This document shows, one piece after another, positions 4,534 through 26,794 of a stretch of 64,000 nucleotides of DNA; within the stretch, counting starts at the first letter, position 1; each line of letters opens with the position of its first letter. The notes under the pieces are model-generated. The model did no database searches. It worked only from the letters and a program-made list of their open reading frames with translations, and was not told the origin of the DNA. The stretch spans positions 34,598,001 to 34,662,000 of the forward strand of contig OZ076409.1 of NCBI GenBank assembly GCA_964187785.1. Reading direction: 5' to 3'. Position numbers and translations under genes: made by a program. Source of the DNA: Amphiscolops sp. MND2022. Lineage: Eukaryota.

Positions 4534-4550
4534 TGGTGACAGGAGTGGGA
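3987..4550 (+). pseudogene. gag: LTR-encoded Gag N-terminus of element A (interrupted by stops, truncated at the deletion junction)
   Basis: MPSTRRQKAKARKLRELDMMSDTDNLDIMLG is homologous to element B Gag MPSTRKQKAKERRSRQLDMLSDVENVDIMLG. The frame continues across the LTR/PBS junction as HY-MVTGVG. Confidence 0.85.
4534..4550 (+). other. Primer-binding site TGGTGACAGGAGTGGGA (tRNA-Leu-like)
   Basis: Immediately follows the LTR-terminal CA and starts with TGG (complement of CCA). One mismatch to the complement of the common metazoan tRNA-Leu 3' end (TGGTGTCAGGAGTGGGA), from recall. Confidence 0.85.
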
Positions 4551-6658: not shown

Positions 6659-6765
6659 TTACCGCGTTTGAAATCTTCCGGAAGTAGACAAAATTGAACA
6701 CTTGTGAAAACTTGTGTTATTGGACGAAAGTACGTGAATCTGATTAAGAGCCCTGATCAAGCCTA
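6659..6765 (-). promoter_or_regulatory. Conserved upstream region / putative promoter of the antisense gene (element A)
   Basis: Minus-strand motifs CTTGATCAGGG, AGATTCAC, GTTTTCAC and ACTTCCGGAAGATT occur in the same order as upstream of the element B antisense ATG. Confidence 0.55.
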
Positions 6766-10748: not shown

Positions 10749-10765
10749 AACTTCTTTAGGATGTT

Positions 10766-11431
10766 TCAATCGGAATGTGATCTTGTGATGTCGCGATTTT
10801 GTTCGCTATTTGTAGAGTTTGTTGAACTCTCTCTAGACCTCAGTCTACTATTTTCCTGTGTAAAACATGTTCTAGAACGATTTTCCCACGTTTTCTGCGA
10901 ATTTCCTCTTTCGGCGTTCCACTCTAGCCCACTGGACCTTCGGTCCTTTAATGTGAAATCGGTCGACCTTGGGCTAGGATGTGGTCCGTTGGACTCCCGG
11001 TCCACCATGGTGAAATTAGGTCTCCCCTGCATTTCTAGTGTATTTTGGATGGAAGGAAGCACTGTACTTGTTATTGCAGCTGTAATTGCAGCCTTAATTT
11101 GGGGATTCAAACCAGTTTTAATTTCATTGAGTTTTCTAGACATTTGATTGGAAATTTCCTCGCTTATCAACCTAGAAGTCTCAATTGTAATTTCACTGTT
11201 TTCCCTGCTGTTGGTATTAAGTAAGGACCTAAAATCTTCTCCTATAGCTTTTGAGCTTTGTTGTGGTCTGCTAGACCCTGAGTCCAAATTCACTTCATTT
11301 TCGCTAACATTTTTCTCTTCATCTTCCCTAGAGTAACTTCCAAGCACTATGTCAACATTTTCTACATCGGACAGCATGTCTAACTGTCTAGAACGACGTT
11401 CTTTAGCCTTTTGCTTTCTCGTGGAAGGCAT
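10766..11431 (-). CDS. gag: Open Gag N-terminal ORF encoded by the element B 3' LTR (221 aa, last few codons in flanking DNA)
   Basis: Nearly identical to the first ~214 aa of the 24049-25800 Gag, with no internal stop. Expression is unknown. Confidence 0.6.
   Translation of the reverse strand: MPSTRKQKAKERRSRQLDMLSDVENVDIVLGSYSREDEEKNVSENEVNLDSGSSRPQQSSKAIGEDFRSLLNTNSRENSEITIETSRLISEEISNQMSRKLNEIKTGLNPQIKAAITAAITSTVLPSIQNTLEMQGRPNFTMVDRESNGPHPSPRSTDFTLKDRRSSGLEWNAERGNSQKTWENRSRTCFTQENSRLRSRESSTNSTNSEQNRDITRSHSD
10784..10788 (+). repeat. Target-site duplication TGTGA (left; right copy at 26795-26799)
   Basis: Identical 5-mer directly outside both termini of element B. Confidence 0.9.
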
Positions 11432-12424
11432 GAGAAGGGGATTTGAGTTTCAAAGTTAATTGCAAATATCAACTAACAAGATAATCCAAATCAACAAAGT
11501 ATGTATTAGCAGAGTTTTAAACTCAAGGTTCAGTATCGTGACAATATTATATTGACTTGTTTGTATCAAGATTGTGAAAGTTTTTCCCTCTCTCTCCAGT
11601 GTTCCCGCTCTTTATAGTTTGGGTGGCGTTACACACAGAATTATGCGAGTCATGGTTCTAAAAATAGCAATAGGTGGGGTTTTAGAACAGCTCTAGGGAC
11701 ATTACGTCACTATTTCATCATGTCTATAAGGACAAAAATAGCATCAAAGAGAAGCGGCTAAAGGTTGTAGTTGGAGATTATGACGTAATATAAATATGCA
11801 TGGAGGAATATTATTATGCCTGAATATACTATTTACATGTTTATATTTCCAATAATAACAGTACATGTCATTAGAATAATCACAAACAGTGTGAGTGGCA
11901 ATTACGCCAAATCGGACGTAACGTCCATGCGGCGTCACCAATTGTATAGCTAGTTCGATTTGATTGGTTAATATAGCACTCGACGTTGCGTACAATCAGC
12001 CACAATAACAGTACATTTGAACACGTTTCCTTACTGTGCTTCAATTGCATTCTAATACAGCATTCAAATTGATCATTTTACATTGCTAATTCCAATTCAT
12101 TTGGTACATTACTATTTCAACAATAATCAACAGGTAAATCAAGCACAAACTAACTATAATATTAAGCAACGGTAAATTACATAAAGTAGAGTGTTTTGTG
12201 ATTAATTTTAACACAATTGTTTGATGAGGCCGTATCGACCTAAGGTCCTTTATGTTTTGGACGCAGTTTCTCTATATTTGCCTCAATTTGAGTGAGGCCA
12301 TCCGTACCATCGGTCCATTGTTGTCAAACCTTCTAAATAGGGAGTACTCCTGGCGGGGGGTTAGATAGATCGTTTACTGAAGGGATCTGGTAGTAATTGC
12401 TGTCACAGGCGGCAGCCTGCGACA
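10789..12424 (-). repeat. Element B 3' LTR (1636 bp)
   Basis: Direct repeat of 25158-26794; about 17 substitutions counted by eye in the first 643 bp. Confidence 0.96.
11611..11667 (-). promoter_or_regulatory. Putative LTR promoter of element B (3' LTR copy): MEF2-consensus site 11658-11667 and TATAAA 11616-11611
   Basis: CTAAAAATAG lies 41 nt upstream of TATAAA on the minus strand; the 5' LTR copy is at 25981-26037. Confidence 0.55.
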
Positions 12425-13319
12425 GTCCCCCTGGGACTAGAATCACACTGCCGGCTTTCATTCCGGCTTGAAAAGCATTTCTCCTGCGAATCCTTTGAAT
12501 GTAATTTTCCTCAGGGATGTGTGTTTCCTCTAAATATCCCAAAGTATTCTCTTCTTGAATAGCCGCGTAAGACTTACCACACACTGTACATCCTCCATAT
12601 TGGATATAGTTGGGTGTTCCACAAATTCCGCTCGCACTAATTGTCATCCCGGAAATGTGGGGTTTTTTAATCCATTCACTTTCCTGACCTTGTTCTTCAG
12701 GGTATTCGCCATAATACTGTGCGACTGAAGGCCCTTGTTCCTCTAACGGTGGTGACAATGGGGAATAAGGTATTGGTTCCAATCCACTACACTGGGCAAT
12801 CTGGTGCCGCGAGTCTCCCTCTTTATATGTCCGTTGGGGTGGGTTCCCAACGAACCATTCAATCAGGCTATCGGATGGATCCATGGTTGACGCCACTGAT
12901 CCGGGTTGTCCATAATGCGATTGAGTTAGGTCGTACTCGTTAGCATCAAATTCGGTCGTCATTGCGCGTCCTCCCGCTAGTTGTGGTGGGAACATCGGGA
13001 CTTCTCTATAGCACGCTATAATTTCAATATCACTGTCGCACCCATCGTCTTGTTGAGAGTCTATTGGTATAGAAAGCACATCCACTTCCATATCCTCGTC
13101 AGAAGAATTATCAACTTCGCTCACTAGCGGTCCGATGAATTCTTCTACATTAAATTGTAGTGACATCTCAGCTAGATATCTTTCCAAAATAAGTTTTTGG
13201 CTATTTTGAATTGTGCTGCTTGATCGTAGTAAAGATTTGAGTTGAATGATTTGCTCTAGCCCGGCAGACCTCAGGTCCACTTTCGATAAGTTGGCGGGAA
13301 ATTTCAAGCGGGGTAACAT
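12333..13319 (-). CDS. ORF3 of element B: 328-aa acidic, proline-rich accessory protein of unknown function with a CxxC; overlaps the PPT and 3' LTR
   Basis: Uninterrupted ORF homologous to element A 7837-8567 (ERYLAEMS/DRYMSDIS, SSDED/SSDEE, PLSPP/PMSPP, PGGxSQAAACD). No evident signal peptide or transmembrane segment. Confidence 0.8.
   Translation of the reverse strand: MLPRLKFPANLSKVDLRSAGLEQIIQLKSLLRSSSTIQNSQKLILERYLAEMSLQFNVEEFIGPLVSEVDNSSDEDMEVDVLSIPIDSQQDDGCDSDIEIIACYREVPMFPPQLAGGRAMTTEFDANEYDLTQSHYGQPGSVASTMDPSDSLIEWFVGNPPQRTYKEGDSRHQIAQCSGLEPIPYSPLSPPLEEQGPSVAQYYGEYPEEQGQESEWIKKPHISGMTISASGICGTPNYIQYGGCTVCGKSYAAIQEENTLGYLEETHIPEENYIQRIRRRNAFQAGMKAGSVILVPGGLSQAAACDSNYYQIPSVNDLSNPPPGVLPI
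12425..12434 (-). other. Polypurine tract CCAGGGGGAC (element B)
   Basis: Directly upstream of the 3' LTR start on the minus strand. Confidence 0.8.
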
Positions 13320-14170
13320 AACTTGGAGTTTCCTCAGATTTTCCTCGGATTCCTTTTAAGTAAAGTTATATGTTTTCATAAATAGTAGCAGAAATCAGCT
13401 GAAAAGCTTCTCAATTGGTCCCTGAAGGCCTATCATCGTATTTGTCTAACAACTAGTGAGTTGTAAATTGCCAGTAACAGTGTTTACCAATGTTAAAGAC
13501 TGGTAAACAATAACTCGATCAAAGACCGACGGTCCGGCAGGCCTCATTCAAGATAAGACTAATGGCGTTTCATTAACCAATAATTCGCATGATTGAATAA
13601 CTAAATATGGTAAGGGAGATCAAAACTGTGAAGAACACAATTGAGTCGTACCTTTTAATTGCGAAATAAATTGAAATTTCATGGCTTTCACTGGCAGGTT
13701 CAAGACATGAGAAATGTGATAATGAAATGAAATGGTAGTGAATGGTAACTAATTGTTAAAGTACTAGCCACGACATCCATTTGTAGTTTAGCGTCTCATA
13801 AAAGTCTCAATAGTATTAGTCAGACTGTTAGTCTAGTTGGGTAAAAGTGCGTAGACAGGTGAGTATTGTATTGTGAATAATATATGAATAAAAGTATAAG
13901 TGCTTGAGGTACAGTAAACCCAACTGTCGTCATTTCTCTAACTACAAGTTACTTTCACTGGTTACTTCATCGATTCGTTCAAAGTGCTTCCCTCACTATC
14001 GGAGTGAACAGAACACGAGGACCTATAGTCTCCCTGGCCTCAACCAATTGTTTATCCAGATTCTCTAACCTGAGCAGGTTACAAACGCATCCCCTTCGAC
14101 AGCTATTCCAAGCAAGAATTCTGCTTCCCCACTATGGAGATAGCATCAGGTTGGTTCTTTAAATGTGTCT

Positions 14171-14293
14171 AAGTTGAACTTGATCAAGGTTCAACTTTTG
14201 ACTAGATTCACTTCCTCCATTTTAAAATGTTTTCACGTTGAAACATTAATTTGAACATAACTTACTTCCGGAAGATTGTCAAAATGCGGCAAA
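14171..14293 (+). promoter_or_regulatory. Putative promoter of the element B antisense gene
   Basis: Near-palindrome AAGTTGAACTTGATCAAGGTTCAACTT, then AGATTCAC, GTTTTCAC and ACTTCCGGAAG (14264-14274) before the ATG at 14294. Motif order is shared with element A. Confidence 0.55.
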
Positions 14294-14564
14294 ATGGATT
14301 CATATTCAGGAAGTACACCGCGTAAATTTATCTCTTTCTATTTAGAACAAGAGACTAACGGCCAACCAACTCAGAAATTAGCTGAGGTTGAAGAGACTGA
14401 CAGGAACGAATTTTCAATCCCTGATACTGCTCACGATTTTCCAACCAGCAATCAACAATCGTCGAGTGAAATCAAAGAGAACGAGGTCAAACAATTACAG
14501 GCTCCCGACCCCTCGCACAGCAACAGTCGAGTAATAGCAGAGGGTAAGGACATTGAGCTCTGCC

Positions 14565-14780
14565 CGCCTCAGACATCTGAACTTGCCAAGGAGGACCAGC
14601 CAATGACTGAAGCCATGGACACAGAGTCCAACCAGCCTCAAACATCAGGACCTCCCAAGAGGGACCAGCCAATGATTGAAGCCATGGACACTGAGTCCAA
14701 CCAGCCTCAAACATCAGAACCTCCCAAGAAGGACCAGCCAATGACTGAACCCATGGACACAGAGTCCAGTCAGCCTCAGA
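14565..14780 (+). repeat. 69-bp coding tandem repeat, about 3 copies (DQPMTEAMDTESNQPQTSGPPKR)
   Basis: GACCAGCCAATGA begins at 14594, 14663 and 14732. Confidence 0.92.
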
Positions 14781-16625
14781 GTCATGAAGCTGCTTCCAGT
14801 AGCCAGCATGTTCAAGCAGAAGTCATGCAAATTGGGGTTAGCCAAGATCAGACTCCAACAGAGGTTTCGCCGTTGTCTAAGCTGCTTTGATCTGACGGAA
14901 GTGAATCAAATGAGAGCTGCCAGGCATTTTTCACGCGCAAAATGCAAGAACTTGGTACTGAGACCAACGAGGAGGGAACCCTAGCGGACCATGAAGCCTC
15001 CCAGAAGGAGAGTGAAAGTGAGTTAATAACTGTCTTTCCTGGCCAAGAGCAAAAGGAACGACCAGACCGACAGTTTCATCAGGTTCCTGCTGTAACATTC
15101 TTAGATACTGTTACAGCGTATTCGGCTTCAAGCAATTCCTCTGCCATTGGGAATTCTAAGAAAAGAGCCAAATTAGTACGACCTGCTACTCCTTTGCGCC
15201 CAGCTTTGCAGGACGATACCTCTAGTGAGCCGTCGTCCATAGCTTCTTCCACAACATCTAATGGTCTCCATCATGGCTTTGGTGAACCAGAGCAACCGAT
15301 CCGAACGGGTAGCAGCTCTGATAATGGGCTTGAGACCGATGCTGAGTCATCTAATGCAGGTGGTTCTACTATGGCCGATGCCCTAACTTCCGGGAGGTAC
15401 AATCCCTTGGTCGAAGTCGACAAAGCCTCCAGTCAATCAGCAAGTTTACCTCCTGCTCCAGCTGGTAAACCTGAACCGCTAAAAGTCAGTAGCTGAGCTC
15501 TATTGAAAGAGTATTTTTCTAAAACTGAACAGGTTGAGTTGCTTCGAGGTCACTCTACCATAGCCTTGACTGAAGATCAGATATCTAGCGTACTGAGGGT
15601 CGTAGCCGATGAGACTGCCAGGGCTTCTTACGAAGTGCTCGAGAATCTGGTATTCCGTGCCTGCATTCTTAGCTTAAACACCTCGGTACCAGGCAGGAGA
15701 GTCTCCAAGAAGTTTAATGTACGTAGCCTTTCACAGGGATCTGATCAAGGCGAATCCGAAACTGAAGCGGGAAGTGACACTAGTCATGGTATCCGTAGTG
15801 ATGACGACTTCGGGAGAATTGGCTACGCATATGAGCACTCCGAAACTGAAATAATTGGCAGACCACCTACTGCACAGCTCATTCCTGGGTGTGGCTCTAA
15901 TGACCAAGCGTCCCCTTGAGTTCAGCGTCAATAGTCCAGGATCTCAGACCCTTGCGGCGCTACAAAGAGAAGCCTTGCAGGATCAGAGTTCAAGTCGGGG
16001 CAATCCCAGCAACCGACGCATTCCCGCATCGAGAGGACGTACTAGGAGGCCGATTACTCGCTCCTGTAAGGTCATGAAGGAGGCGTATTTTAAGGGTATG
16101 GAGTGGACGAAGACTTTCGTGTCAGGGTCAGTCGATCCGCGATGGAACCCTTACAAATTTTATTGTCAAATTTGCAAGGCAAACATATCAATATATGGAA
16201 AAGGAGCCCGAGAAATCTTGCGACACCACTCTACCGAAAAGCACTTGAGGAAAGACCAAAGGTGGAGGTTCGAGCATCTATCTAAGGTAGACCCAGTTAC
16301 CCGCAAAGTTGTGCATCAAGTCAGGGGTAAAGACGGCAAACTCCTCACACCTTACCAGCTTGAGTTAGAATACCCAAAGTTCAAGGGTGTACCGTTGGTG
16401 GATATCGGCAAGAAGCTACCATTTTATGACGAATTCATGGCGGGTACTGATTACATGGCATCTTCTTTGGGCGACCGAGCAAAAATTCAGATTTCCATTT
16501 TGTGCCGATTTCTCACCCATTATGGGGATATTGATGTGCTCAAAGGATTCTGGAGCGACGTGGGAGTGATTGTGAACCACCAGGCACTGTTCACAGACTT
16601 CGATTGGAGCAGGGAAAGACTTTCA

Positions 16626-16759
16626 GTTAGTATTTTCACTTTACTCGGGCGTGTACATTGTTAGAGAATTGTAGTGGACCTAAGGTTCTTTCAGCCTCAT
16701 GCTAGGCGAGGTCGCCTAACTAGCTAAATTCTGACATAAAAGGCAAGATTGTGTTATAG
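16626..16759 (+). other. Predicted intron 1 (134 nt, phase 0) of the antisense gene
   Basis: CTTTCA|GTTAGT...GTGTTATAG|GTCATCTTCCATCAC joins RERLS|VIFHHLFLEMM in frame with ORF 16787. Confidence 0.8.
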
Positions 16760-17235
16760 GTCATCTTCCATCACTTATTCCTTGAGATGATGAATCACAT
16801 TGGAAGCCATATCTCTGAGTATTCTTTGGAATTCGCTCAAGAAGGAGTTTTCCTGCTGGTATTTATCCGATTTTGGCGTGATGACCAAATGTGTAAGGTC
16901 TTCTTGAAAAGGACCGGACGTCTCCTCAGCATCACTCAAGCTGAGGTGAGGCTTGTTTCCAACGTCATGGGCGTATTCTCAACGAAGCCCCACTTAGTCA
17001 GTTGTACTGGAACAACGCACCGAAGTATCGTCTTGCTGGACCAATGCCCCTACGCAGCTTATGGAATCCAGAGTCCCCCCGTTTTGAAGAGCTGTCTCTG
17101 AAGACCATAATGCATAAGAAGGGGTACAGTGTGTTCGGAAAAATATACTTCTTCTCGGTTGTGCAATTTGTCATCGTGTGTCTGGGAGGCTGTCTAGATC
17201 AGGACTGGATGTTGGTGTCTCCTGAATTGTCGAAG

Positions 17236-17305
17236 GTTGGTTTAAGACTTTGTTCTTTGCATCTAGCTCCTAGGATTTTAGACTGAGCCCTTCTTTTGTA
17301 TTCAG
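17236..17305 (+). other. Predicted intron 2 (70 nt, phase 0)
   Basis: TCGAAG|GTTGGT...TTCTTTTGTATTCAG|GCAATT joins the ORF 17002 frame to the ORF 17324 frame (one TAA remains at 17321). Confidence 0.65.
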
Positions 17306-17440
17306 GCAATTAGATCATGCTAATTGGATATCAATGGTCTACCAGTCCTCTGCCAAGAACTGTTGCGTCACTGGAGCAAAGTGGTTACTTTCTTGTCGAA
17401 AAGCACCCCTACCCAAGAAGGCACAGGAGTCCGCAAACAA

Positions 17441-17507
17441 GTAAGAGTTCTCTGGCTCCTTAGACCTACGGTCCAATGCAGTTTCTCAACTGAGTGTTTC
17501 TTTTCAG
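17441..17507 (+). other. Predicted intron 3 (67 nt, phase 0)
   Basis: AAACAA|GTAAGA...GTTTCTTTTCAG|CCCCAG; the following 82-nt exon is open (PQSLEWSLVYDDFFPSRLELFYRLVRD). Confidence 0.7.
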
Positions 17508-17589
17508 CCCCAGAGCTTAGAATGGTCTCTTGTTTACGACGACTTCTTTCCAAGTAGACTCGAGTTGTTCTACCGATTAGTGCGCGATT

Positions 17590-17657
17590 GTTAGTGTTGT
17601 CATTCATAGTTTTGCCATATACCATTGGGTTCAAAGTTTTCACTCATTCTTTTATAG
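17590..17657 (+). other. Predicted intron 4 (68 nt, phase 1)
   Basis: GATT|GTTAGT...TTCTTTTATAG|TCACC restores the frame of ORF 17588-18946 (LVRD-F-TSSFTTNLKRRR). Confidence 0.7.
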
Positions 17658-18972
17658 TCACCAGCAGTTTCACCACCAATCTCAAGCGGCGCCGTGATCG
17701 AGGCTTCCATGTGTATCGAGAGCTAGGTCAATATCTCTTCAAGCTGGGCAGACGTTGCGTCAGTTCCAGCAGCATTCCTGAAGAAAGTGATTTTCCCGGG
17801 GTCTACAGTCTCGTTATGGCTGACACTAAGGCTCTGTCAGTAGCTGACTTCCTGTCCCGGTCCAAATTGAGCGAAAAACTAGCAACTGCATGCAAGCTGA
17901 AAGCGGAAGCCGAGATGAGTGAGAAGAAAAACGAAAAGCTGACTCCAGCTGAAGTTACAGAGAACATTAAAGCTGATTTTGGACGCACTGCTCGTAGTTA
18001 TGTAGTCACCCTATTCGGTACTGCTCAGAAGCTCCAGAGATTCACCAGCGATATAGTGAGAGGACTGGGTTCTTTTGATTTGGACGTGATGTTGGTCGAC
18101 CCAATATCTTTGGCGACCTTTTGTTTCAAGGAGTTGTTTACCAGTTTCCGTTTGCGAGGTGTGTTGCTGGCAGACGAAGAGACGATTTACTTCGAAGAGT
18201 ATTTCTCATTTCTTGACGAACTCCGCAAACTTCACCCCAACATCTCCCAGCCAAAACTGCTTATTCCTGACGTTATTGAGTTTGTGTGTGGACAGGAGTC
18301 CTACAGGTCTCGACCTCATCTCATGAGGATTTTCAGACTCAGTTGTCTTTGTCTAGATGCTCCTCGCGTCTCCTTTCCCCCTGTCAAGTTTGGGACAGTC
18401 CATACTGATGACCCAAAAAGTCCAATGTTCGATGTTGTTACACCGTTGCAATCGTACCTCAGCAATGTTGCCCGCGGGGTAGAAGTTTTCACCTCAGAGT
18501 CTTCGATCTCCTATTTTCCCGCTCTGGAACCGACTTTTGGGTCAACTGGGCTAAGGGGCATTTACAGTCCCTGGAGTGACTTGGATAAGTTTGGATGGGC
18601 TGAGATCAATGACGTCATCAATAGTGTGACGCCCAAAGGCCCGAAGGTCTCCGCCGCAGAGGATGCCCCTAGTACCAGTAAAGCCTCATCGTCTTTTATG
18701 GTGCCAAAGCCAGGGAAGAGGCGTAGTCACTTGATTTCAGATGAAGAGCTAAACAAGTCCGCTGAGCGTTTAAATGCTAGTTTAGATAAGTCCTTATTGT
18801 ACCATATGTACAATTGTCATTTTAGTTTTTTGTACAGTGCTTCTAAAACTTTTCGTATAGACACTTTGGGATTCTATTTAGTGTTACTGTATTCTTTGTC
18901 TTTTATTCAGTCAATTCCGCAAAGATACTATTCTGCAATTGTTTAATCAGGACAGTTAATTTACAATTCTGG

Positions 18973-21900
18973 CTAATATCTGTATTCGTCGTTAAAGTTG
19001 GAGGTGGGGTTAGGTCGTAGGTTATATTTTCCTCCCCTAGGGCAAATCTAATACTTCGGACACGATAGTATCACTCCCTCCTGACGATTGTTGATCGTCA
19101 ATCCCATCATTTATGCGTTCTGAACGTGTTTTTTTCAAGCGGAGCGAATTCATCATTTTCGTGTGGCCCTGTGGACCTAAGGTCCACGTCGGTGAAAGTT
19201 TCGTCTGGCGCTCTGGCGCTCTGGCGTCATTTTCTTGAGGCCTGGTGGACGTAACGTCCACGTCGGTGAAAATTTCGTCCGGCGCTCTGGTATTGTTGGC
19301 GTAATCATTAGAAGTGTCTAGCGCTTCTCGACATGTAGGAATTGCGGTTTCTTCAGTGGAATTGGGAAATTCTCCGAAATTGGTATCCCAAGTGATGACA
19401 TATAGGTCATCTTGCGGAATAATAATTTCATCGTCCGGTTGCAAATTCCCTTCCGGTCTGGTGTCTCGTAGGACTGTGTTCGGTTCATATTTGCGTAGTC
19501 TGATGCGGTGTAAAATTTGCGTTTTGTTAGAATTTAGTTTTCTGACTATATAGTTTTCATTTGGCAAGACATTTTCTACCATATAGGGTCCTGTCCATCT
19601 GTATTCGCGAAATGGAATTTTCGATCCCTGGTGGTCGGCGATAGGTTGCAGTATAAAACAGTAGTCGTTCTGTTTCAAGGGGGCCGCTTTGGCCTTCCGG
19701 TCGTAATATTCTTTGTACTTCAAATAGGATTGCATAATGTTTTTCTTTGTTTAATCAAGTAAAATTTGCGTCCGGCGCTGAAAATCATCTGCAAAGTCTG
19801 TGGTTGGTAGGACTTTCGGGTTGGGATTAAGGCCCAATTTGTGATCCAATATATTATACGGAATTCGTCCGTGAAATATTCTAGATGGTTCACAACCTAG
19901 GGTAGCGTGATAGGTCGTATTATAATTTAATACGGCTAAAGGCAAATGTTTGTGCCACTGTCGCCTGTAGTCCCCTGAGGCCATCTTGAGGTTTGTTTTG
20001 AGACTGGCATGGGTACGTTCTAATTTGCTTATTGTTTGCGGGTAATTGTAGTTGCGCATTTTATTCGAATTCCGAGAATTTGAGCTACTTCGGCGACCAG
20101 TCTGGACGTAAAAGCCGTCCCTTTATCCGTGATCAAGGTAGTAGGCAAATAGGTATGTTTGGTCATTATGTCTATAATAACCTTTGCCGTGTTTGTGGCC
20201 GAAGCGTCAGTAACTGGATATGCAAAAAGATATCTTGAAAACACATCCATTGCAGTTATGATGTTTTCATAACCTCCGCTGGGGGGCAGGTTCGGTAACA
20301 AATCATTTTGCATTGCGTCTTCCGGACCTAAGTCCCATTCAGGCAAGTTGAGCAATTCGGGAGTTATGGATGGGTTTGGGACTCTTTTTTCTTTAATGCA
20401 AATTTCGCATCCTTGAACCCATTTTTTAACAATTTTTGCAATGCCAGGGTAGTAATATTTTTGGCGAATTCCGACGAGCATCTTGGATATTCCAGGGTGT
20501 TTATTGGCTTTGCCGTGTAGGGATTCAAATAGTTCATGTACCAGATGTTTAGGTAAAAGCATCTGATTGTATTTGACAGCTCCTGTTTCATCAAAATACT
20601 GTCTAGTAATAATTTCATCCATAACGGACAGTCGGTCCATTTGGCGACAGTAATGTTGGTAACGAGTATCTTGCAGGAGGATGGTCTCAGAATACCTTTC
20701 TTTCAGTATTTTTAGGCGCAATTGTTGCAAAATGACGTCGTTGTTTTGCTCCACTGCTATAGAGTTCGTGTAGGATAGTTTTTGAAGCGTGGAGAGTTTG
20801 TGATAGTCACTTTTGTGTGTAGTAAATTTTTCGAATAAAATATCAGGTATTTGATTTGATGGATGGTCCCTAGCGTCTTTTTTGCGCTGTAAAATTTGTT
20901 CTTCCGTCTCGTCATCATCCTCTGTATAGAAGATTTGTTCCTCTTCCGAAACTCCGGCCGATTGGACATGTAGTTCGATCGGTGTTGTAGGAATATCTTC
21001 TCTGATTCTGAGGAATAATTTCTCTTTTGGAGAGATCTCCAGACGTGACAGGTAATCAGCCGCTGTGTTGTTTTTGCCAGGGATGTGTGCTATTGTGAAG
21101 TTGAACTGGATTACATAATCACAAGCATTCCATAATGTCGGCGGAATAATTTTAGTTTGAAAAAATCGCGTGACGGACTTGTTGTCCGTGAGTATAATCA
21201 CCGGTTTTGGGGTTCCCCAAAAGATATGTCCAAATTCCTTGAAGGCAAAGAAAATTGCTAAGAATTCCTTGGCATAGATGGACATTTTCAATTGGGTAGG
21301 ACTGAAGGTCTTGGATCCATAAGCTACTGGTGCGAAAGCTTTCCTCGTAGAAGTGTACTTCTCGAGTGGATCGTCCTCGATGAGAACTGCGTACCCTGCG
21401 GCCGAATAGCTGGCATCGGTCATAAGGGCTATCTGCTTGTTCGGTAAGGGTTGTTTGAGTGCCAGTTCGCAACATCGATCAAGAGCCTTGTTTATCTCGG
21501 TAAATTGTGCCAATAGGTCCGGTGTTACCAGGACTTTTTCATCTTTAGTGAGCAGTTTGAAAAACGGCGTTAGTTTTTCTGATAGTCTTGAGATGTAGTT
21601 TCGGTAATAGTTCAAAAATCCCAAGTAACGCTGTAGCGCTTTCTTGGATTTCGGGAATTTCGTATTTTCTAGGAAATTTTGGACCCGTGGTCTCTGTGGC
21701 TTCACTCCAGCAGGAGTGATGGTGCGTCCCCGAAAGTCGATTTCCGTTGCGCCAAAATGGCATTTATGAATCGTATGCTTGAGACCGGCTTTTTGTGTGC
21801 ATTGGAATGTGGCCCTCAGGTTGTTGACGAGTTCTTCAGCATCGTTAGCAGCATTGCCAATATCATCAACATATTGCGCGCATTGGTCTGCTTTGATGAC

Positions 21901-24046
21901 TTTGTCCAAGTATTCGCGCATGAAACTAGAGAAGGCCGATAGGGCTCTGCTGAGGCCCGGTGCCAATCTTCTGTACGCGAAAGATCTGCTGGCAAAATTG
22001 AAAGCAAGCATTTCAATGGACCGTTGGTCCGCCATTTGTAGGCAATGGTAAGCTTGCGAACAGTCCAACTTACAGAATAGCTTCTTCCCAGCCATGTGTT
22101 GGGCCGCGTCTGTAAGCGTACTTACTGGATGGTTATTGTTGATGTAATCATCCGATATCAAGTTGTTTATTTTACGCAAGTCGACCAAAAGTCGCAGTTT
22201 GCCATTGGGTTTCTTTTGTGCAAAAATGGGGCTTGCGTACTTAGAGAATGGGAGTGTTGTAATGATCCCATAGCGATGTAGTAAGGCTAGTTCCACAAGG
22301 ATGTCTTCTTTGAGGTTAAATGGGGTTGGTAAACTTTGACTGTAGGCCGGAGAGTCGTCTTTCGAGGTCAATTTGGGTCAAGTCTTCGTTCATGACGATT
22401 TCAAATCGATGTCTTGCGAATATATCATGGAATTGAACACGTAGGTCTTCGATGCGGGCTATTTCAGCAGGTTGGAGCATAGAGTCTGTCCAATCAAAAT
22501 TGGATAGGAATTGACGTCTCGACTCAGAGTCGTTCTGAGGATTAAGTTTTTCCAATTCCTGGAGGTTGATCAGTTCTGACAAAATCCGTTTTTGAATCGG
22601 TGTATGATGCTGAGGATCCCCAGAGTCCTCTGGTGTTCGAAACCAGTAGTTTTCCTTGAAGTACTCAGGCTTAGTAGATTTGATCAAGCTGCTTGCATAG
22701 AAAGCAGCGTTTTCCGGATTGTCCTGCAAAACGTGCCAGGTGGTCACCGGGTCGATAGGTTTGACATATTTCATCTGTTCCGGCGTAAGGACAGTGAAAT
22801 TAGCAACTTGTGTACCTCTTTTAAGGGTATAGGGACTGTCGAAAAAATTGTTCAGGTGAACCGATACTCGACCATTGGTCAATGTGACTAGAGCAGCACA
22901 GAAAGCAATATCGCCATCATCCGTAAGGGTGTTGCTCGGTTGAAGGATCCCGGTAACTGTAGTATCCTCGTACAGTTGTGAAGCCATGAGGACCGAGTGT
23001 CGGTCATTAGGTGGGATGGTTACATCCTCTCTAATGCAAAGGGATTCCATGACATTTGTATATTTGTGATCTGCAGTTTTGAGCTGCATTGAGAAGAAAG
23101 GAAAATTTAGGACGCCTTGTCGCATGTCCAGAATGGTGTTATTCCTTTGAAGGAAAGAAAGACCAATTAATGGACTGGTGAGTTTCTCCATGACTATAAA
23201 GATTTCATAGAAATCTATGTCGCCGACTTCAAATTTCAATTCGACGGTGCTTTTAGGATCTTCCAGCTGTCCGTTTGCAACCATTATTTGGAAGTTGGGA
23301 GCTGGACCCTCTTTAATAATAGACTGAGGGGCCAATAATCGTATTTTACGTAGATCAGCTTCAGGGATTGCGCTAGATAGAGCTCCCGTGTCTACAAGGC
23401 CATCTAGTGTTAGTTCGCCAAAATCCATTGGAAAATAGAGCATTCGTCGTTTGTATTTGAGGCCAAGATTGGCAGTCAGCGGCACATAGTCCGGTTCCCC
23501 TGTTCTGGTGACCAGGGTGCTCACATAGCGTGCCGCAACGGCTGTGGCCAAGGAGACCTGTGGTCCCTCATGGTGAAATTCATCACCGACATTGGAGTGA
23601 GTGGTTTGATGGGCGAGCTGTGCGCCATGTTGCCATGGGTCAACTCGTGCTTTGGTAAGAACTGTATTTAGGGCTTGGTCAGATTCAAAAGAATCTGGTT
23701 CTATATTCGAGTTCTGTTTGTCAAAATTGTGGTAGAAGTACAGATGATATTGATTGTAGCAATTAGCGTCCCAATAGGGGTCAAAACCATAGCCGGGGTC
23801 AGGATAGTATGGGTTATAGTCATCAATGAGGGGTATAAGTCGTATAGTAGTAGTATCAGTTTGTAGTCTGTTGGACATAGAGTCCAAAGTGGTCTGAAAA
23901 TTAGGTGGAGTTTTCATCTGCTGCTGCCAGTCAGCTGATGAAGTTTCTTTAAGAGCTGTATAATACTCAGTGTAATATATATTTGGAGGGTCGGATATTA
24001 TGTACTGTCGTACACGGAGTTTTTCATGTAATTGGAGTCGTGGCAA
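18973..24046 (-). pseudogene. pol: Pol polyprotein (aspartic protease, dUTPase-like spacer, reverse transcriptase, RNase H, integrase), broken by frameshifts near 22370, 20050, 19745 and in the C-terminal tail
   Basis: PR LVDTGA; RT KLRLLVDLRKIN, KLDCSQAYH, YVDD; RH TDAS, KEFLAI, TDNKS, AADYLSR; IN HHCC (LHG...HPG...CEIC), TDKG, ERTHASL; tail RGGKYNLRP...YRY* ending at 18973. Confidence 0.95.
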
Positions 24047-24048
24047 AT

Positions 24049-25800
24049 CTAGTTTTTTGGATTCTTTAAGATGGACGTGGTTTGTTTATTTTTCACGTCG
24101 TCTTGGCTGGTGGACTTATCGGTGGCCGTGGTGTCATCCAGTTTAAGGTTTTTGGGCTTGAGGTGGGCTCCAGCGCCTTTCCAACATCGTTCCGCCGGGT
24201 GGTTCGTTTTGTCGCAAGTCGGACATTTGGGATATTCTTTCTTTGTATCCTGCCCTTCATTGCGGCGTTGTTCTTCCTTTCTTTTAAGTTTGCGGCAATC
24301 GTCTTTGACATGTCCAGGTTTCTTGCAATAGTTGCAAGTAATGTTTGGATCAATGCCAGAGGAAAGAAGGCCAGTTCCCGGTCGTGTTGCTGTAGGGGCA
24401 GTGGACATTGTTGGTACTGGAATGTCGTCCCCCTCCTCAAGTCCATTGAGCTCAAGCTCTCGTTCTAGATGGGTGACAATTTCCTCATAGGTGGCGTTTT
24501 CAAGTCTAGCCATATTGACGGAGCGTTTCAATTTTGGCGGCAACTTGGCATAGAGGAGACTATCGAACATGGCCTGGGCGTTCTGGCCAAACGCCTTTTC
24601 AGCTCCTTGGTTTAATTCCCCAAGGAAGTCGGGTAGTTTCATGGTGTTTGGATCAACCACCAATCTGTGCCATTTGTGTTTGGCGGTCGCCTGGGATTCA
24701 GGTTTAACGTATTTCCGACGAAATACAGCTAGAATGTCTTCCAATGTTTGCCTGTTTGCCGTATTGATGGTACGGAAAGTTTGTAACAGTGAATGAAAAA
24801 GATTGATTTTCATCGTTTCGGTCATATCAGGTTGCATTTTTATCATTGTGTGAAAGAGATCTTCAAAAAGTTCGAATTTCTCTGATTTGCCGTCGAAAGT
24901 CAGTGTAGTCGTGCTGACTGGGCGTACCATCAGTGTTTGTGCTGATGGACGGCTGTTCATGCCGACTAGTACTTCTGCAAGACGGTTAATGGGATCAGAA
25001 GGAACAGTTGGTGTTGTGGTCTCAGGGACCTGGGGAATTGTATCCTGAGACTCGTCATTGTTGGAATTTTGACGTTGCAGGGGATCTCGAGATAGCATGG
25101 GACGTCCAGTGAGAAACTCGGGAACCATATGTGGGGTAGGTTTGGCTCCTGTCACCATGTCGCGATTTTGTTCGCTATTTGTAGAGTTTGTTGAACTCTG
25201 TCTAGACCTCAGTCTACTATTTTCCTGTGTAAAACATGTTCTAGAACGGTTTTCCCACGTTTTCTGCGAATTTCCTACTTCGGCGTTCCACTGTAGCCTA
25301 CTGGACCTTCGGTCCTTTAATGTGAAATCGGTCGACCTTGTGCTAGGATGTGGCCCGTTGAACTCCCGGTCCACCATGGTGAAATTAGGTCTCCCCTGCA
25401 TTTCTAGTGTATTTTGGATGGAAGGAAGCACTGTACTTGTTATTGCAGCTGTAATTGCATCCTTAATTTGGGAATTCAAACCAGTTTTAATTTCATTGAG
25501 TTTTCTAGACATTTGATTGGAAATTTCCTCGCTTATCAACCTAGAAGTCTCAATTGTATTTTCACTGTTTTCCCTGCTGTTGGTATTAAGTAAGGACCTA
25601 AAATCTTCTCCTATAGCATTTGAGCTTTGTTGTGGTCTGCTAGACCCTGAGTCCAAATTCACTTCATTTTCGCTAACATTATTCTCTTCATCTTCCCTAG
25701 AATAACTTCCAAGCATTATGTCAACATTTTCTACATCGGACAGCATGTCCAACTGTCTAGAACGACGTTCTTTAGCCTTTTGCTTTCTCGTGGAAGGCAT
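24049..25800 (-). CDS. gag: Gag polyprotein (583 aa) with two CCHC zinc knuckles; first ~214 codons lie inside the 5' LTR
   Basis: CNYCKKPGHVKDDC and CPTCDKTNHPAERC; capsid-like FDGKSEKFELFEDLF region; directly upstream of pol. Confidence 0.93.
   Translation of the reverse strand: MPSTRKQKAKERRSRQLDMLSDVENVDIMLGSYSREDEENNVSENEVNLDSGSSRPQQSSNAIGEDFRSLLNTNSRENSENTIETSRLISEEISNQMSRKLNEIKTGLNSQIKDAITAAITSTVLPSIQNTLEMQGRPNFTMVDREFNGPHPSTRSTDFTLKDRRSSRLQWNAEVGNSQKTWENRSRTCFTQENSRLRSRQSSTNSTNSEQNRDMVTGAKPTPHMVPEFLTGRPMLSRDPLQRQNSNNDESQDTIPQVPETTTPTVPSDPINRLAEVLVGMNSRPSAQTLMVRPVSTTTLTFDGKSEKFELFEDLFHTMIKMQPDMTETMKINLFHSLLQTFRTINTANRQTLEDILAVFRRKYVKPESQATAKHKWHRLVVDPNTMKLPDFLGELNQGAEKAFGQNAQAMFDSLLYAKLPPKLKRSVNMARLENATYEEIVTHLERELELNGLEEGDDIPVPTMSTAPTATRPGTGLLSSGIDPNITCNYCKKPGHVKDDCRKLKRKEEQRRNEGQDTKKEYPKCPTCDKTNHPAERCWKGAGAHLKPKNLKLDDTTATDKSTSQDDVKNKQTTSILKNPKN
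24052..24058 (-). other. Putative -1 ribosomal frameshift heptamer A AAA AAC at the gag-pol junction
   Basis: CCA AAA AAC TAG at the end of gag; the pol ORF is in the -1 frame. Confidence 0.75.
25146..25157 (-). other. Primer-binding site TGGTGACAGGAG (tRNA-Leu-like), translated as part of gag (MVTG)
   Basis: Follows the LTR-terminal CA; same 12 nt as the element A PBS. Confidence 0.85.
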
Positions 25801-26794
25801 GAGAAGGTGATTTGAGTTTCAAAGTTAATTGCAAATATCAACTAACAAGATAATCCAAATCAACAAAGTATGTATTAGCAGAGTTTTAAACTCAAGGTTC
25901 AGTATCGTGACAATATTATATCGACTTGTTTGTATCAAGATTGTGAAAGTTTTTGTCCTCTCTCTCCAGTGTTCCCGCTATTTATAGTTTGGGTGGGGTT
26001 GCACACAGAATTATGCGAGTCATGGTTCTAAAAATAGCAATAGGTGGGGTTTTAGAACAGTTCTAGGGACATTACGTCACTATTTCATCATGTGTATAAG
26101 GACAAAAATAGCATCAAAGAGAAGTGGCTAAAGGTTGTAGTTGGAGATTATGACGTAATTTAAATATGCATGGAGGAATATTATTATGCCTGAAAATACT
26201 ATTTACATGTTTATATTTCCAATAATAACACTACATGTTATTAGAATAATCACAAACAGTGTGATCGGCAATTACGCCAAATCGGACGTAACGTCCATGT
26301 GGCGTCACCAATTGTATAGCCAGTTCGATTTGATTGGTTAATATAGCACTCGACGTTGCGTACAATCAGCCACAACAACAGTACATTTGAACACGTTTCC
26401 TTACTGCGCTTCAATTGCATTCTAATACAGCATTCAAATTGATCATTTTACATTGCTAATTCCAATTCATTTGGTACATTACTATTTCAACAATAATCAA
26501 CAGGTAAATCAAGCACAAACCAACTATAATATTAAGCAACGGTAAATTACATAAAGTAGAGTGTTTTGTGATTAATTTTAACACAATTGTTTGATGAGGC
26601 CGTATCGACCTAAAGTCCTTTATGTTTTGGACGCAGTTTCTCTATATTTGCCTCAATTTGAGTGAGGCCATCCGTACCATCGGTCCATTGTTGTCAAACT
26701 TTCTAAATAGGGAGTACTCCTGGCGGGGGGTTAGATAGATCGTTTACTGAAGGGATCTGGTAGTAATTGCCGTCACAGGCGGCAGCCTGCGACA
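25158..26794 (-). repeat. Element B 5' LTR (1637 bp)
   Basis: Direct repeat of 10789-12424, followed by the PBS. Confidence 0.96.

What the first reader, a model, noticed from the sequence alone, without database searches (positions are those of the whole stretch)
10789..26794. Gypsy lineage with a four-gene architecture: LTR-initiated gag, pol, spliced antisense gene and PPT-overlapping ORF3
Seen: between pol and the 3' LTR lie about 6.5 kb carrying a divergent gene pair (antisense gene from 14294 on +, ORF3 from 13319 on -). The same layout recurs in the clearly diverged element A, with protein-level conservation. Known: canonical Gypsy elements have gag-pol plus at most an env-like ORF; antisense ORFs are described mainly in some plant elements and in deltaretroviruses (HBZ). 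Inference: this is a vertically maintained accessory module of a 'complex' retrotransposon clade rather than a one-off capture, and I do not recognise it as a described system.
Basis: partly seen in the sequence, partly recalled or inferred. Interest (0 to 1): 0.92.

Follow-up and report, generated by a model that had tools for sequence, protein, structure and literature searches.

The report
Animal Gypsy retrotransposon with two extra genes
A very abundant, recently active jumping gene of the Gypsy type in an animal genome carries, besides its normal genes, a large intron-containing gene on the opposite strand and a small third gene that runs into its end repeat, a layout so far described mainly in plants.

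Summary
Window 10789-26794 (minus strand) is a 16-kb Ty3/Gypsy element. Its LTRs are 1637 bp long and 97.5% identical, with a TCACA target duplication.

- **Core genes:** gag starts inside the LTR. Pol follows in the -1 frame (PR-RT-RH-IN).
- **Antisense gene:** in intact genomic copies it has five exons and 1322-1361 codons. Its four GT-AG introns are conserved across subfamilies about 40% diverged in DNA. Exon lengths are fixed and intron lengths vary. Codon-position divergence is 0.30/0.16/0.58.
- **ORF3:** about 275 aa, sense strand. It reads through the polypurine tract and 89 nt into U3.

The window's copy has a broken pol and a broken antisense gene; its ORF3 is intact. Element A is a one-off internal deletion of a sister subfamily. 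All 10 sampled genomic copies of the antisense gene lie in the same element context. First-look counts are about 8,000.

Both accessory proteins are orphans, with no Pfam, PDB or named homologue. The host is an animal. Antisense accessory genes are known in plant and fungal Gypsy elements; I found no animal case in print. Splicing and expression are not shown, because no RNA data were available. I rate it a new variant of a known kind, and the function is only inferred.

The parts
25158..26794 (-). 5' LTR (1637 nt; TG...CA). U3 carries a CCAAT box and the TATA box. The R/U5 part encodes the first 214 codons of gag.
   Evidence: Self-BLAST, 97.5% identity to the 3' LTR. Termini. Conserved blocks in the LTR alignment of 10 copies.
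25979..25986 (-). TATA box (TATAAATA), 186 nt upstream of the gag ATG.
   Evidence: TATAWATA lies 155-193 nt upstream of the gag ATG in 9 of 9 copies. The motif alone is not above chance in the window: 8 found, 8.05 expected. Its conserved position is the evidence.
24049..25800 (-). gag (583 codons plus stop). The ATG lies inside the LTR, the PBS lies inside the reading frame, and there is a CCHC knuckle near the C-terminus.
   Evidence: ORF list. 88% aa identity to the intact copy c6. dN/dS is 0.08-0.13 for the whole gene and 0.11-0.16 for the LTR-encoded part. The zf-CCHC hit is weak: E 0.004, below the Pfam cut-off.
25146..25157 (-). Primer binding site core TGGTGACAGGAG, directly after the 5' LTR.
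   Evidence: It follows the LTR in 9 of the 11 rows (8 of 9 independent full elements, the duplicate c830, and A). In c2a and c4b the 5' LTR end was not recovered. The tRNA identity was not tested.
24052..24058 (-). Slippery heptamer A AAA AAC just before the gag stop. Pol is in the -1 frame.
   Evidence: Sequence read. Frame relation from the ORF coordinates.
19037..24085 (-). pol: protease, RT, RNase H, integrase. Broken in this copy into four frames. A single ORF of 1684-1715 codons in copies c6 and c7.
   Evidence: Pfam hits: gag-asp_proteas 2e-6, RVT_1 2.9e-17, RT_RNaseH 1.2e-15, Integrase_H2C2 5.7e-14, rve 2.3e-11. Frame breaks. Intact ORFs elsewhere.
14294..16625 (+). Antisense gene, exon 1. 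A long Ser-rich, low-complexity N-terminal part is followed by a CxxC...H...H zinc finger. In this copy it is broken by stops at 14888 and 15494 and by a frameshift near 15900.
   Evidence: ORFs. Homology to the intact 721-codon exon 1 of c6. Weak zf-C2H2_ZN292 hit, below cut-off. Donor GTTAGT at 16626.
16760..17235 (+). Antisense gene, exon 2 (476 nt here, 486 nt in 7 of 10 aligned copies; a 10-nt deletion in this copy).
   Evidence: Alignment of 10 copies, with boundaries AG|G and AAG|GT.
17306..17440 (+). Antisense gene, exon 3 (135 nt in 10 of 10 copies).
17508..17589 (+). Antisense gene, exon 4 (82 nt in 10 of 10 copies).
17658..18946 (+). Antisense gene, exon 5 (all-helical domain plus a Ser/Lys-rich tail). 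The stop lies 90 nt from the pol stop on the other strand.
   Evidence: ORF 17558-18946. 52% aa identity to c6 exon 5. Structure model.
14265..14274 (.). Palindrome CTTCCGGAAG, 20 nt upstream of the antisense ATG. Candidate core-promoter element.
   Evidence: Invariant in 11 of 11 aligned copies. 2 matches in the window against 0.06 expected. Reading it as an ETS-type site is from memory.
12333..13319 (-). ORF3, intact here. The conserved start M-S-L-Q-F is at 13166, and an in-frame upstream extension reaches 13319. It reads through the PPT and 89 nt of U3.
   Evidence: ORF. Alignment with 31 relatives gives 11 invariant columns. Codon-position divergence is 0.46/0.40/0.67.
13294..13313 (-). 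Conserved block CCCCGC-N8-TCCCGC, about 130 nt upstream of the conserved ORF3 ATG. Candidate internal sense promoter element.
   Evidence: Conserved in 10 of 10 full intergenic regions; absent from the shortened region of A. Reading it as E2F-like is from memory.
12425..12435 (-). Polypurine tract (AGGGGGA), directly before the 3' LTR and inside ORF3.
10789..12424 (-). 3' LTR. It contains the last 29 codons of ORF3 and a second copy of the gag start.
2981..10026 (+). Element A, an internally deleted copy of a sister subfamily. LTRs 2981-4533 and 8479-10026 are 94.7% identical. It keeps antisense exon 1 and part of exon 2 (6659->4596, minus strand) and ORF3 remnants (7804-8561). There is no matching target duplication.
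   Evidence: The junction is unique to this locus and its duplicate contig, while the same LTR type occurs elsewhere in pairs about 13.9 kb apart.

Best explanation
This is one slightly decayed copy of a very abundant, recently active, autonomous Ty3/Gypsy family of an animal genome. The family has a 'complex' genome of four genes.

**Shown by sequence and comparison**
- Genomic RNA should start at a TATA promoter in U3. Gag begins about 150 nt downstream, still inside the LTR. It reads through R/U5 and the primer binding site.
- Gag-Pol is made by a -1 shift at A AAA AAC.
- Downstream of pol lies a 6.6-kb module with two protein-coding genes under purifying selection.
- The first is a five-exon antisense gene of about 1330 codons. 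Its four introns can persist through retrotransposition because they are antisense to the genomic RNA, so they cannot be spliced out of it.
- The second is a fast-evolving sense ORF3 of about 275 codons. Its 3' end is built from the polypurine tract and the first 89 nt of U3.

**Inferred**
- The antisense gene is transcribed from its own promoter in the 1.1-kb intergenic region, next to the invariant CTTCCGGAAG palindrome.
- Its product is a nuclear zinc-finger protein that regulates the element's own expression or counters host silencing.
- ORF3 comes either from an internal promoter (the conserved CCCGC blocks) or from a spliced subgenomic RNA. A pyrimidine-tract-AG lies 15-20 nt before the ATG in 9 of 10 copies.
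- ORF3 acts as a small accessory factor in the manner of retroviral or Cer1 accessory proteins.
- The module plus U3 is the fast-evolving, host-facing half of the element. R/U5-gag-pol is the conserved half and recombines between subfamilies.
For: **Architecture:**

**Family size and youth**
- 8069 and 8187 first-look candidates for two parts of the antisense gene. All 143 and all 103 scored matches were strong.
- At least 27 loci appear in both lists, on one strand and 1.7-2.2 kb apart (my reading of those tables).
- LTR pairs are 97.1-100% identical in 9 of 10 fetched copies.
- Copy c6 has identical LTRs and all four genes open.

**Antisense gene model**
- GT at 39 of 40 donors and AG at 39 of 40 acceptors.
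- Exon lengths are identical in 10 of 10 copies for exons 3 and 4, and 486 nt in 7 of 10 for exon 2.
- Intron lengths vary: 90-135, 70-132, 67-72 and 65-70 nt.
- Exon identity is 0.68-0.75 against 0.48-0.58 for introns.
- Codon positions differ by 0.30/0.16/0.58, against 0.61 for intron interiors, over 32 inter-subfamily pairs.
- The spliced frame is open over 1322-1361 codons in 3 of 9 independent copies from three subfamilies.

**ORF3**
- 94 relatives down to 29% identity, typically 272 aa.
- 11 invariant and 30 near-invariant columns.
- Intact in 4 of 10 copies.

**LTR-encoded gag:**

**Conserved non-coding blocks in otherwise about 65% identical DNA:**

**Modular divergence:**

**Not env-like:** no hydrophobic segment; the maximum KD(19) is 1.23.
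Against: - No RNA evidence exists. No RNA run was listed, so transcription, start sites, splicing and polyadenylation of either accessory gene are unproven.
- No AATAAA or ATTAAA lies within 550 nt after the antisense stop in B or c6.
- No conserved poly(A) signal was found in the LTR. AATAAA at +309 is present in only 4 of 9 copies.
- Function is pure inference. There is no Pfam family, no PDB relative by sequence, no convincing fold match and no named homologue.
- The zinc-finger call rests on a hit below cut-off and on the residue pattern.
- Most sampled copies have at least one broken accessory gene: antisense broken in 6 of 9, ORF3 in 6 of 10.
- My sample of copies came from the best-scoring matches, so it favours young, intact members.
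- dS in the accessory genes is saturated, so dN/dS could not be computed between subfamilies. It is 0.41-0.54 in the one close pair.
Confidence: 0.75

Rival explanations
1. The antisense gene is a passenger. A host gene was captured once in reverse orientation by an ancestor of the family and has been carried along without any role in the element's life cycle.
For: - It has ordinary cellular-type introns and a promoter-like upstream region.
- It has no similarity to any retroelement protein.
- It is broken in 6 of 9 sampled copies, including copies with intact gag and pol such as c7.
Against: - It has stayed open and constrained while its DNA diverged by 31-43% between subfamilies. Second codon positions differ by 0.16 against 0.61 for introns.
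- That pattern requires selection acting on the replicating lineages themselves.
- All 10 sampled copies are inside elements.
- None of the 82 homologues, nor the 10 representative clusters sampled, carries a name or a Pfam domain.
Confidence: 0.12
2. The antisense protein is a degenerate DNA-transposase-derived protein (BED-finger/hAT-like), so the family is a chimera of a Gypsy element and a DNA-transposon gene.
For: - The CxxC-x16-H-x5-H spacing with aromatic residues before it resembles BED fingers (read; the BED pattern is from memory).
- Atlas neighbours at score 0.88 include clusters with the Spin-doc/GT2D2 finger and zf-BED, the latter on 12% of members.
- Hermes transposase appears at Z 4.5 over 151 residues, rank 43.
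Against: - No Pfam zf-BED, DUF4371 or hAT-dimerisation hit, even at E 10.
- No PDB sequence match.
- The model of the finger plus exon 2 was unusable, with pLDDT 37.
Confidence: 0.1
3. The 6.6-kb region is a nested insertion of another mobile element, or the ORFs are chance frames in non-coding DNA.
For: The region is about three times more diverged than gag-pol. It has a different composition profile.
Against: - It has the same position and orientation in 10 of 10 copies.
- There are no terminal inverted repeats and no direct repeats other than the LTRs.
- ORF3 shares its 3' end with the PPT and U3.
- The codon-position pattern is that of coding sequence, and there are 1300-codon open frames.
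Confidence: 0.02

Closest known systems
Plant Retand/Tat-type Ty3/Gypsy elements with antisense additional ORFs (Retand, maize Grande, rice RIRE2). Source: PMC11963269 (abstract, Background and Discussion read) and PMC7264820 (passages read).
   Same: - Non-chromoviral Gypsy elements with an unusually long pol-3' LTR region (2.9-6.6 kb in Retand; 6.6 kb here).
- The region carries conserved antisense ORFs of unknown function, present in nearly all active copies.
- Tandem repeats occur in that region (69-bp repeat here).
- Non-autonomous deletion derivatives occur.
- A regulatory, DNA-binding role has been proposed by analogy with retroviral accessory genes.
   Different: - The host is an animal.
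- The antisense protein has no Transposase_28/TRP28 hit or any other Pfam hit.
- It is a five-exon gene of about 1330 codons rather than a short single ORF.
- A second, sense accessory ORF overlaps the PPT and U3.
- gag starts in the LTR.
- Relationship of the RT to plant lineages was not tested.
Deltaretrovirus antisense genes (HTLV-1 HBZ, HTLV-2 APH-2), as summarised in PMC11963269.
   Same: An antisense-strand protein gene lies between pol/env and the 3' LTR of a retroelement. It is spliced, and it is thought or known to be a nuclear regulator.
   Different: - HBZ is transcribed from the 3' LTR and is a small bZIP protein (from memory).
- Here the gene starts 1.9 kb inside the element with its own conserved upstream blocks.
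- It has no bZIP hit and is about six times larger.
CERV of the C. elegans Gypsy element Cer1 (PMC10309623; abstract and passages read).
   Same: [quoted passage not shown]
- That ORF encodes a nuclear accessory protein needed for export of genomic RNA.
- This is a plausible model for ORF3.
   Different: - CERV is made from a five-exon sense mRNA that shares exons with gag-pol.
- Splicing of ORF3 is untested and there is no sequence similarity.
- Cer1 has no antisense gene.
Lentiviral nef (from memory, no call).
   Same: An accessory ORF whose 3' part overlaps the polypurine tract and U3 of the 3' LTR, so protein and cis-acting signals share the same bases.
   Different: No homology. Here only the last 33 codons or so overlap.
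Yeast Ty1 (from memory, no call).
   Same: The gag ORF starts inside the 5' LTR, and the primer binding site lies within gag coding sequence.
   Different: Ty1 is a Copia-type element and only a few codons are LTR-encoded. Here 214 codons (643 nt) are.
Other reverse-oriented genes in Gypsy-type elements: Boty brtn in Botrytis (title seen in the reference list of PMC7264820 only) and REM1 of Chlamydomonas (passage in PMC2774666).
   Same: A gene on the opposite strand inside an LTR element.
   Different: - REM1's reverse frame is a truncated integrase module with a chromodomain.
- brtn was not read.
- Neither is from an animal.
Bdelloid rotifer Vesta/Juno/TelKA elements with diverse ORF3s (PMC5408684; abstract and passages read).
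   Same: Animal LTR elements with modular, lineage-specific third ORFs that are exchanged between element lineages.
   Different: Those ORF3s are sense-oriented and have recognisable enzymatic or env-like homology. No antisense gene is reported in the passages I read.

Membership tests
Ty3/Gypsy (Metaviridae) LTR retrotransposon | Two LTRs with TG...CA ends and a short target-site duplication. | tested here: met
   LTRs are 97.5% identical. Ends are TGTCGC...GCGACA, and 5-bp duplications are present in B and in 7 other independent copies; c830 repeats B's. A has none.
Ty3/Gypsy (Metaviridae) LTR retrotransposon | Pol domain order protease - RT - RNase H - integrase. | tested here: met
   Pfam hits in that order along the minus strand.
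Ty3/Gypsy (Metaviridae) LTR retrotransposon | Gag with a zinc knuckle; PBS after the 5' LTR; PPT before the 3' LTR. | tested here: met
   zf-CCHC at E 0.004, below the curated cut-off. A TGG-starting PBS and a purine run sit at the expected places. The tRNA match was not tested.
Ty3/Gypsy (Metaviridae) LTR retrotransposon | Placement of the RT in a named Gypsy clade (GyDB/REXdb tree). | not testable with these tools
   No reference RT set was available. The best 120 pol homologues are all unnamed.
Plant Retand lineage with TRP28 antisense ORF | Long pol-3' LTR region with an antisense ORF. | tested here: met
   6.6 kb, with the antisense gene at 14294-18946.
Plant Retand lineage with TRP28 antisense ORF | TRP28 (Pfam Transposase_28; that equivalence is from memory) domain in the antisense protein. 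| tested here: not met
   No such Pfam hit at E up to 1 or 10 on window and intact copies.
Plant Retand lineage with TRP28 antisense ORF | Host is a flowering plant. | tested here: not met
   Four Wnt loci are present in the genome. The search for the plant NAC family found nothing, but its control rang nowhere, so that result is uninformative.
HBZ-like retroviral antisense gene | bZIP protein transcribed from the 3' LTR. | tested here: not met
   No bZIP hit. The gene start lies 1.9 kb inside the 3' LTR edge. The transcription start itself is not testable here.
Cer1 CERV-like accessory protein | [quoted passage not shown] | not testable with these tools
   The position is met for ORF3. Splicing and function need RNA and experiments, and no RNA run was listed. 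There is no sequence similarity to any named protein.
BED-finger / hAT-transposase-derived proteins | zf-BED finger, RNase-H-like DDE core, hAT C-terminal dimerisation domain. | tested here: inconclusive
   No Pfam hit. The Atlas gives leads only. Hermes scores Z 4.5, within noise. The model of the finger plus exon 2 had pLDDT 37.
Errantivirus-type env gene | Membrane-spanning fusion glycoprotein downstream of pol. | tested here: not met
   No hydrophobic 19-residue window above KD 1.23 in either accessory protein. No env Pfam hit.

The most novel reading that the evidence does not exclude
A metazoan LTR retrotransposon lineage has evolved a retrovirus-like 'complex' genome on its own, with three transcription units:
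- an LTR-driven gag-pol;
- an internally driven or subgenomic small accessory protein fused to PPT/U3;
- an internally driven, four-intron antisense gene for a 1330-residue zinc-finger regulator.

The fast-diverging U3-plus-accessory half would be the interface of an arms race with host silencing. The antisense gene would be the first natural animal counterpart of HBZ outside the retroviruses. It would also be a natural example of introns preserved through retrotransposition by antisense orientation.
Probability: 0.35. Interest if true: 0.8.

Novelty: new variant of a known kind. Interest (0 to 1): 0.62.

Why it matters
Extra genes in LTR retrotransposons show how simple elements become complex retroviruses. 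Almost all that is known about antisense accessory genes comes from a few plant families and from HTLV.

This animal family is very large. First-look counts are about 8,000 for each of two parts of the antisense gene, and some copies have identical LTRs. It offers many natural, diverged alleles of two orphan accessory genes. It also offers clear candidate promoters and an intron-containing antisense gene.

The family could therefore make three questions testable in an animal:
- What do such genes do for an element: transcriptional control, RNA export, or defence against host silencing?
- How is transcription from both strands of an element reconciled with small-RNA silencing?
- Why does the U3-plus-accessory half evolve so much faster than gag-pol?

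There is also a practical annotation point. Gene predictors will call thousands of copies of these two proteins as host genes.

Tried and rejected
**RNA evidence.** No RNA holder was listed for the accessory module of an intact copy.

I did not ask again and used coordinate cross-matching instead.

**Function of the accessory proteins.**
- Pfam at E up to 10 gave only a C2H2 hit below cut-off.
- PDB by profile gave nothing.
- Foldseek on the exon-5 model (pLDDT 59, residues 30-245 confident, all helices) gave a best E of 0.37.
- VIA wide search gave a best Z of 6.0 on unrelated helical proteins.
- The model of the finger plus exon 2 used a natural read-through frame of intron 1 as query. It had pLDDT 37 and was discarded.
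- Atlas search on exon 5 gave a best score of 0.76.

**Naming relatives or the host.**
- All homologues of exon 5 (82), ORF3 (94) and pol (best 120 of 1826) are unnamed ENA predictions.
- The 10 representative clusters checked carry no names.
- 685 representative clusters match exon 5, but only the best 150 were visible.

**Ideas rejected.**
- Intron 1 lost in the subfamily with the 916-codon frame: rejected, because the intron is present and merely open.
- Sharply different ages for the accessory module and gag-pol: softened. The trees are mostly congruent and close pairs diverge equally in both parts.

**Not settled.**
It was replaced by windowed BLAST.
- Poly(A) signals were not found consistently.

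**Literature.** Seven searches found no animal Gypsy element with an antisense protein gene. That covers only the open-access library searched.

Full report
**What is at the coordinates**

A self-comparison of the first 30.5 kb finds two pairs of long direct repeats.
- 10788-12424 and 25157-26794 are 97.5% identical over 1638 nt.
- 2981-4533 and 8479-10026 are 94.7% identical.

The first pair bounds element B, the subject of the finding. Read on the minus strand, it begins TGTCGC and ends GCGACA. It is flanked by TCACA on both sides, at 26795-26799 and 10784-10788. A TGG-starting primer binding site follows the 5' LTR directly, and a purine run precedes the 3' LTR.

Pfam places the following on the minus strand:
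- an aspartic protease at 24085-22316;
- RT, RNase H, the integrase zinc finger and the integrase core at 22377-20029;
- a weak integrase C-terminal hit at 19750-19037.

This is the Gypsy domain order.

**The host and the family**

The genome is 1.07 Gb, with 13 large contigs plus small ones. It has four Wnt loci, so the host is an animal. A plant-family control search was uninformative.

A 269-residue piece of the antisense frame finds 8069 first-look candidates in this genome. All 143 scored matches have E below 1e-110, and many lie in open frames of 700-916 codons. By my count of that table, 30 of the 143 have a stop inside the match. The last exon gives 8187 candidates, with all 103 scored matches strong. 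At least 27 loci occur in both lists on the same strand, 1.7-2.2 kb apart.

I fetched 20 kb around ten of these matches.
- Nine are full elements of 15,552-15,991 bp, with LTR pairs 97.1-100% identical.
- The tenth (c4b) has pol from residue 644, the antisense gene, ORF3 and the 3' LTR. It is truncated or interrupted at its 5' side within the fetched stretch.
- One of the nine (contig C830) has the same flanks as B. It is a duplicate assembly of this locus.

That leaves nine independent copies besides B's duplicate.

Copy c6 has identical LTRs and open frames for all genes:
- gag, 592 codons;
- pol, 1715 codons, in the -1 frame;
- the complete antisense gene;
- ORF3.

**gag starts in the LTR**

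- In 9 of 9 copies a TATAWATA box lies 155-193 nt upstream of the gag ATG, preceded by conserved CCAAT and other blocks.
- In 8 of 9 copies the LTR ends 642-645 nt after the ATG.
- The 214 LTR-encoded codons have dN/dS of 0.11-0.16 between subfamilies, like the rest of gag at 0.06-0.13.
- The primer binding site is read as M-V-T-G within gag.
- The gag stop is preceded by A AAA AAC, and pol is in the -1 frame.

**The antisense gene**

In c6 the plus-strand frames join into one 3996-nt coding sequence of 1331 codons. The joins use four introns of 98, 107, 70 and 66 nt, each with GTAAGT-type donors and pyrimidine-tract-AG acceptors.

An alignment of ten copies over this part of the gene gives the following.

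| Feature | Result |
|---|---|
| Donors with GT | 39 of 40 |
| Acceptors with AG | 39 of 40 |
| Exons 3 and 4 | 135 and 82 nt in all ten copies |
| Exon 2 | 486 nt in seven, 483 in one, 476 in B and its duplicate |
| Intron lengths | 90-135, 70-132, 67-72 and 65-70 nt |
| Mean pairwise identity | 0.68-0.75 in exons, 0.48-0.58 in introns |

Over 32 inter-subfamily pairs the three codon positions differ by 0.300, 0.162 and 0.579. Intron interiors differ by 0.610. The spliced frame is open for 1331, 1322 and 1361 codons in three of nine independent copies, from three different subfamilies.

This is strong comparative evidence for a real, spliced, protein-coding gene. It is not RNA evidence, because no RNA run was listed.

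The introns are antisense to the element's genomic RNA, so they cannot be removed from it. This explains how they survive retrotransposition. That step is inference from established knowledge of antisense-intron reporters.

In the window the exons are 14294-16625, 16760-17235, 17306-17440, 17508-17589 and 17658-18946. This copy is a pseudogene. It has stops at 14888 and 15494, a frameshift near 15900 and a 10-nt deletion in exon 2.

**The antisense protein**

- It begins with about 500 Ser-rich residues (17% Ser). In B's lineage this part carries a 69-bp tandem repeat.
- A CxxC-x16-H-x5-H finger with aromatic residues before it follows.
- About 800 further residues complete the protein.

Exon 5 folds with moderate confidence (pLDDT 59) into an all-helical domain, confident over residues 30-245. 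It has no convincing match in the PDB. Foldseek's best E is 0.37 and VIA's best Z is 6.0. Hermes transposase scores Z 4.5 at rank 43, which is within noise.

No Pfam family reaches its cut-off, and there are no PDB relatives by profile. Atlas neighbours of the finger region are only leads: 0.91 for an unnamed cluster, and 0.88 for clusters with the Spin-doc/GT2D2 or BED finger. There is no transmembrane-like segment.

**ORF3**

The conserved form starts M-(S/E)-L-Q-F and is typically 272 aa. 94 relatives reach down to 29% identity, and all are unnamed.

An alignment of 32 sequences has 11 invariant and 30 near-invariant columns. They include an acidic Ser-rich stretch, D-S-D-I-E-V-I-A-C, a CxxC, and an invariant G-V-S-Q-A-A-A-C-D-G.

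That last motif is encoded by the polypurine tract and the first bases of the LTR. Its invariance may therefore reflect those cis-acting signals as much as the protein. The frame then runs 89 nt into U3.

Codon positions differ by 0.46/0.40/0.67 in the body and 0.17/0.15/0.43 in the overlap. ORF3 is intact in 4 of 10 independent copies, including B.

**The intergenic region**

The 1.1 kb between the two start codons is about 65% identical between subfamilies, yet it contains invariant blocks.
- One is the palindrome CTTCCGGAAG, 20 nt before the antisense ATG. It is present in 11 of 11 copies, with 2 in the window against 0.06 expected.
- Another is a pair of CCCGC-containing blocks about 130 nt before the ORF3 ATG.
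- A pyrimidine tract followed by AG lies 15-20 nt before the ORF3 ATG in 9 of 10 copies.

I read the first two as promoter elements (ETS-like and E2F-like, from memory). I read the last as a possible acceptor for a subgenomic RNA. None of these readings is tested.

**How the parts evolve**

Between subfamilies, 500-nt windows of R/U5-gag-pol are 82-98% identical in a mosaic pattern. U3, ORF3, the intergenic region and the antisense gene are 65-76% identical or do not align.

Pairwise distances are equal in both halves for close pairs: 0.02-0.06. Between subfamilies they are 0.10-0.18 in gag-pol against 0.31-0.43 in the accessory part. The two trees agree except for one copy.

The module is therefore inherited with the element lineages, evolves faster, and gag-pol shows recombination.

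**Element A**

A (2981-10026, plus orientation) keeps the following:
- the LTR-encoded gag start;
- antisense exon 1 and part of exon 2;
- ORF3 remnants.

It lacks the rest of gag, pol and antisense exons 3-5, and it has no matching target duplication.

Its LTR-to-antisense junction is found only here and on C830, which is 2 of 40 scored matches. Its LTR type occurs elsewhere in pairs about 13.9 kb apart. A is therefore a one-off deletion of a full-length sister subfamily, not a second instance of a compact layout.

**Comparison with what is known**

| Known system | Relation to this element | Source |
|---|---|---|
| Plant Retand-type Gypsy elements (Retand, Grande, RIRE2) | Closest analogue: a 2.9-6.6 kb pol-3' LTR region always carries antisense ORFs, usually with the TRP28 domain, together with tandem repeats and non-autonomous derivatives | PMC11963269, PMC7264820 |
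| Botrytis Boty | A fungal case of an antisense gene | cited in PMC7264820 |
| Chlamydomonas REM1 | Has a reverse-frame integrase remnant | PMC2774666 |
| C. elegans Cer1 | An animal Gypsy element with the sense, spliced accessory protein CERV | PMC10309623 |
| Bdelloid rotifer LTR elements | Animal elements with diverse sense ORF3s | PMC5408684 |

Seven literature searches found no animal Gypsy element with an antisense protein gene. I could not consult Repbase, Dfam or GyDB.

The element fails two Retand membership features: it has no TRP28 domain and its host is not a plant. It works like a Retand-type element but is not a member of that lineage.

**Verdict**

The architecture is a new variant of a known kind. 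It is an animal counterpart of the plant 'long pol-to-LTR' elements, unusual for three things:
- the size and intron content of its antisense gene;
- the PPT/U3-fused ORF3;
- the 214-codon LTR-encoded gag extension.

Function remains inferred.

Noticed in passing
window 30555-64000: One continuous 47-bp satellite array of more than 33 kb, with a higher-order period of about 334 bp, AT-rich and strongly strand-skewed. The Gypsy copies sit at its edge.
   Followed up: no
window 2200-2582 and 10343-10759: About 400 nt just left of element A and just left of element B are 80% alike. Both elements lie next to copies of another, unidentified repeat.
   Followed up: no
G000 contig C830 (loci L002, L037, L038): A 103-kb unplaced contig carries both B (98%) and A (99%) with the same flanks and the same private deletions. 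It is a second haplotype or a duplicate assembly of this locus, so it must not be counted as an independent insertion.
   Followed up: partly
window 14566-14778 and 19153-19290: There are two tandem repeats. A 69-bp repeat (3.1 copies) inside antisense exon 1 adds 23-residue repeats to the disordered part of the protein. A 74-bp repeat (1.9 copies) lies in the integrase C-terminal region.
   Followed up: no
window 25146-25157 and 4534-4551: The primer binding site shares 12 nt between subfamilies. Beyond that it differs: in B it is constrained by the gag frame. The longer version in A looks, from memory, like the 3' end of a leucine tRNA. This was not tested.
   Followed up: no
loci L033/L034 (copy c2b) and other '916-codon' matches: In one subfamily intron 1 of the antisense gene happens to be open in frame. 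Exons 1 and 2 therefore read as one 916-codon ORF. Gene callers will report this as a longer protein.
   Followed up: partly
window 18946-19037: The stop codons of the antisense gene and of pol face each other only 90 nt apart, so their 3' untranslated regions must overlap the other gene. If both strands are transcribed, double-stranded RNA would form here.
   Followed up: no
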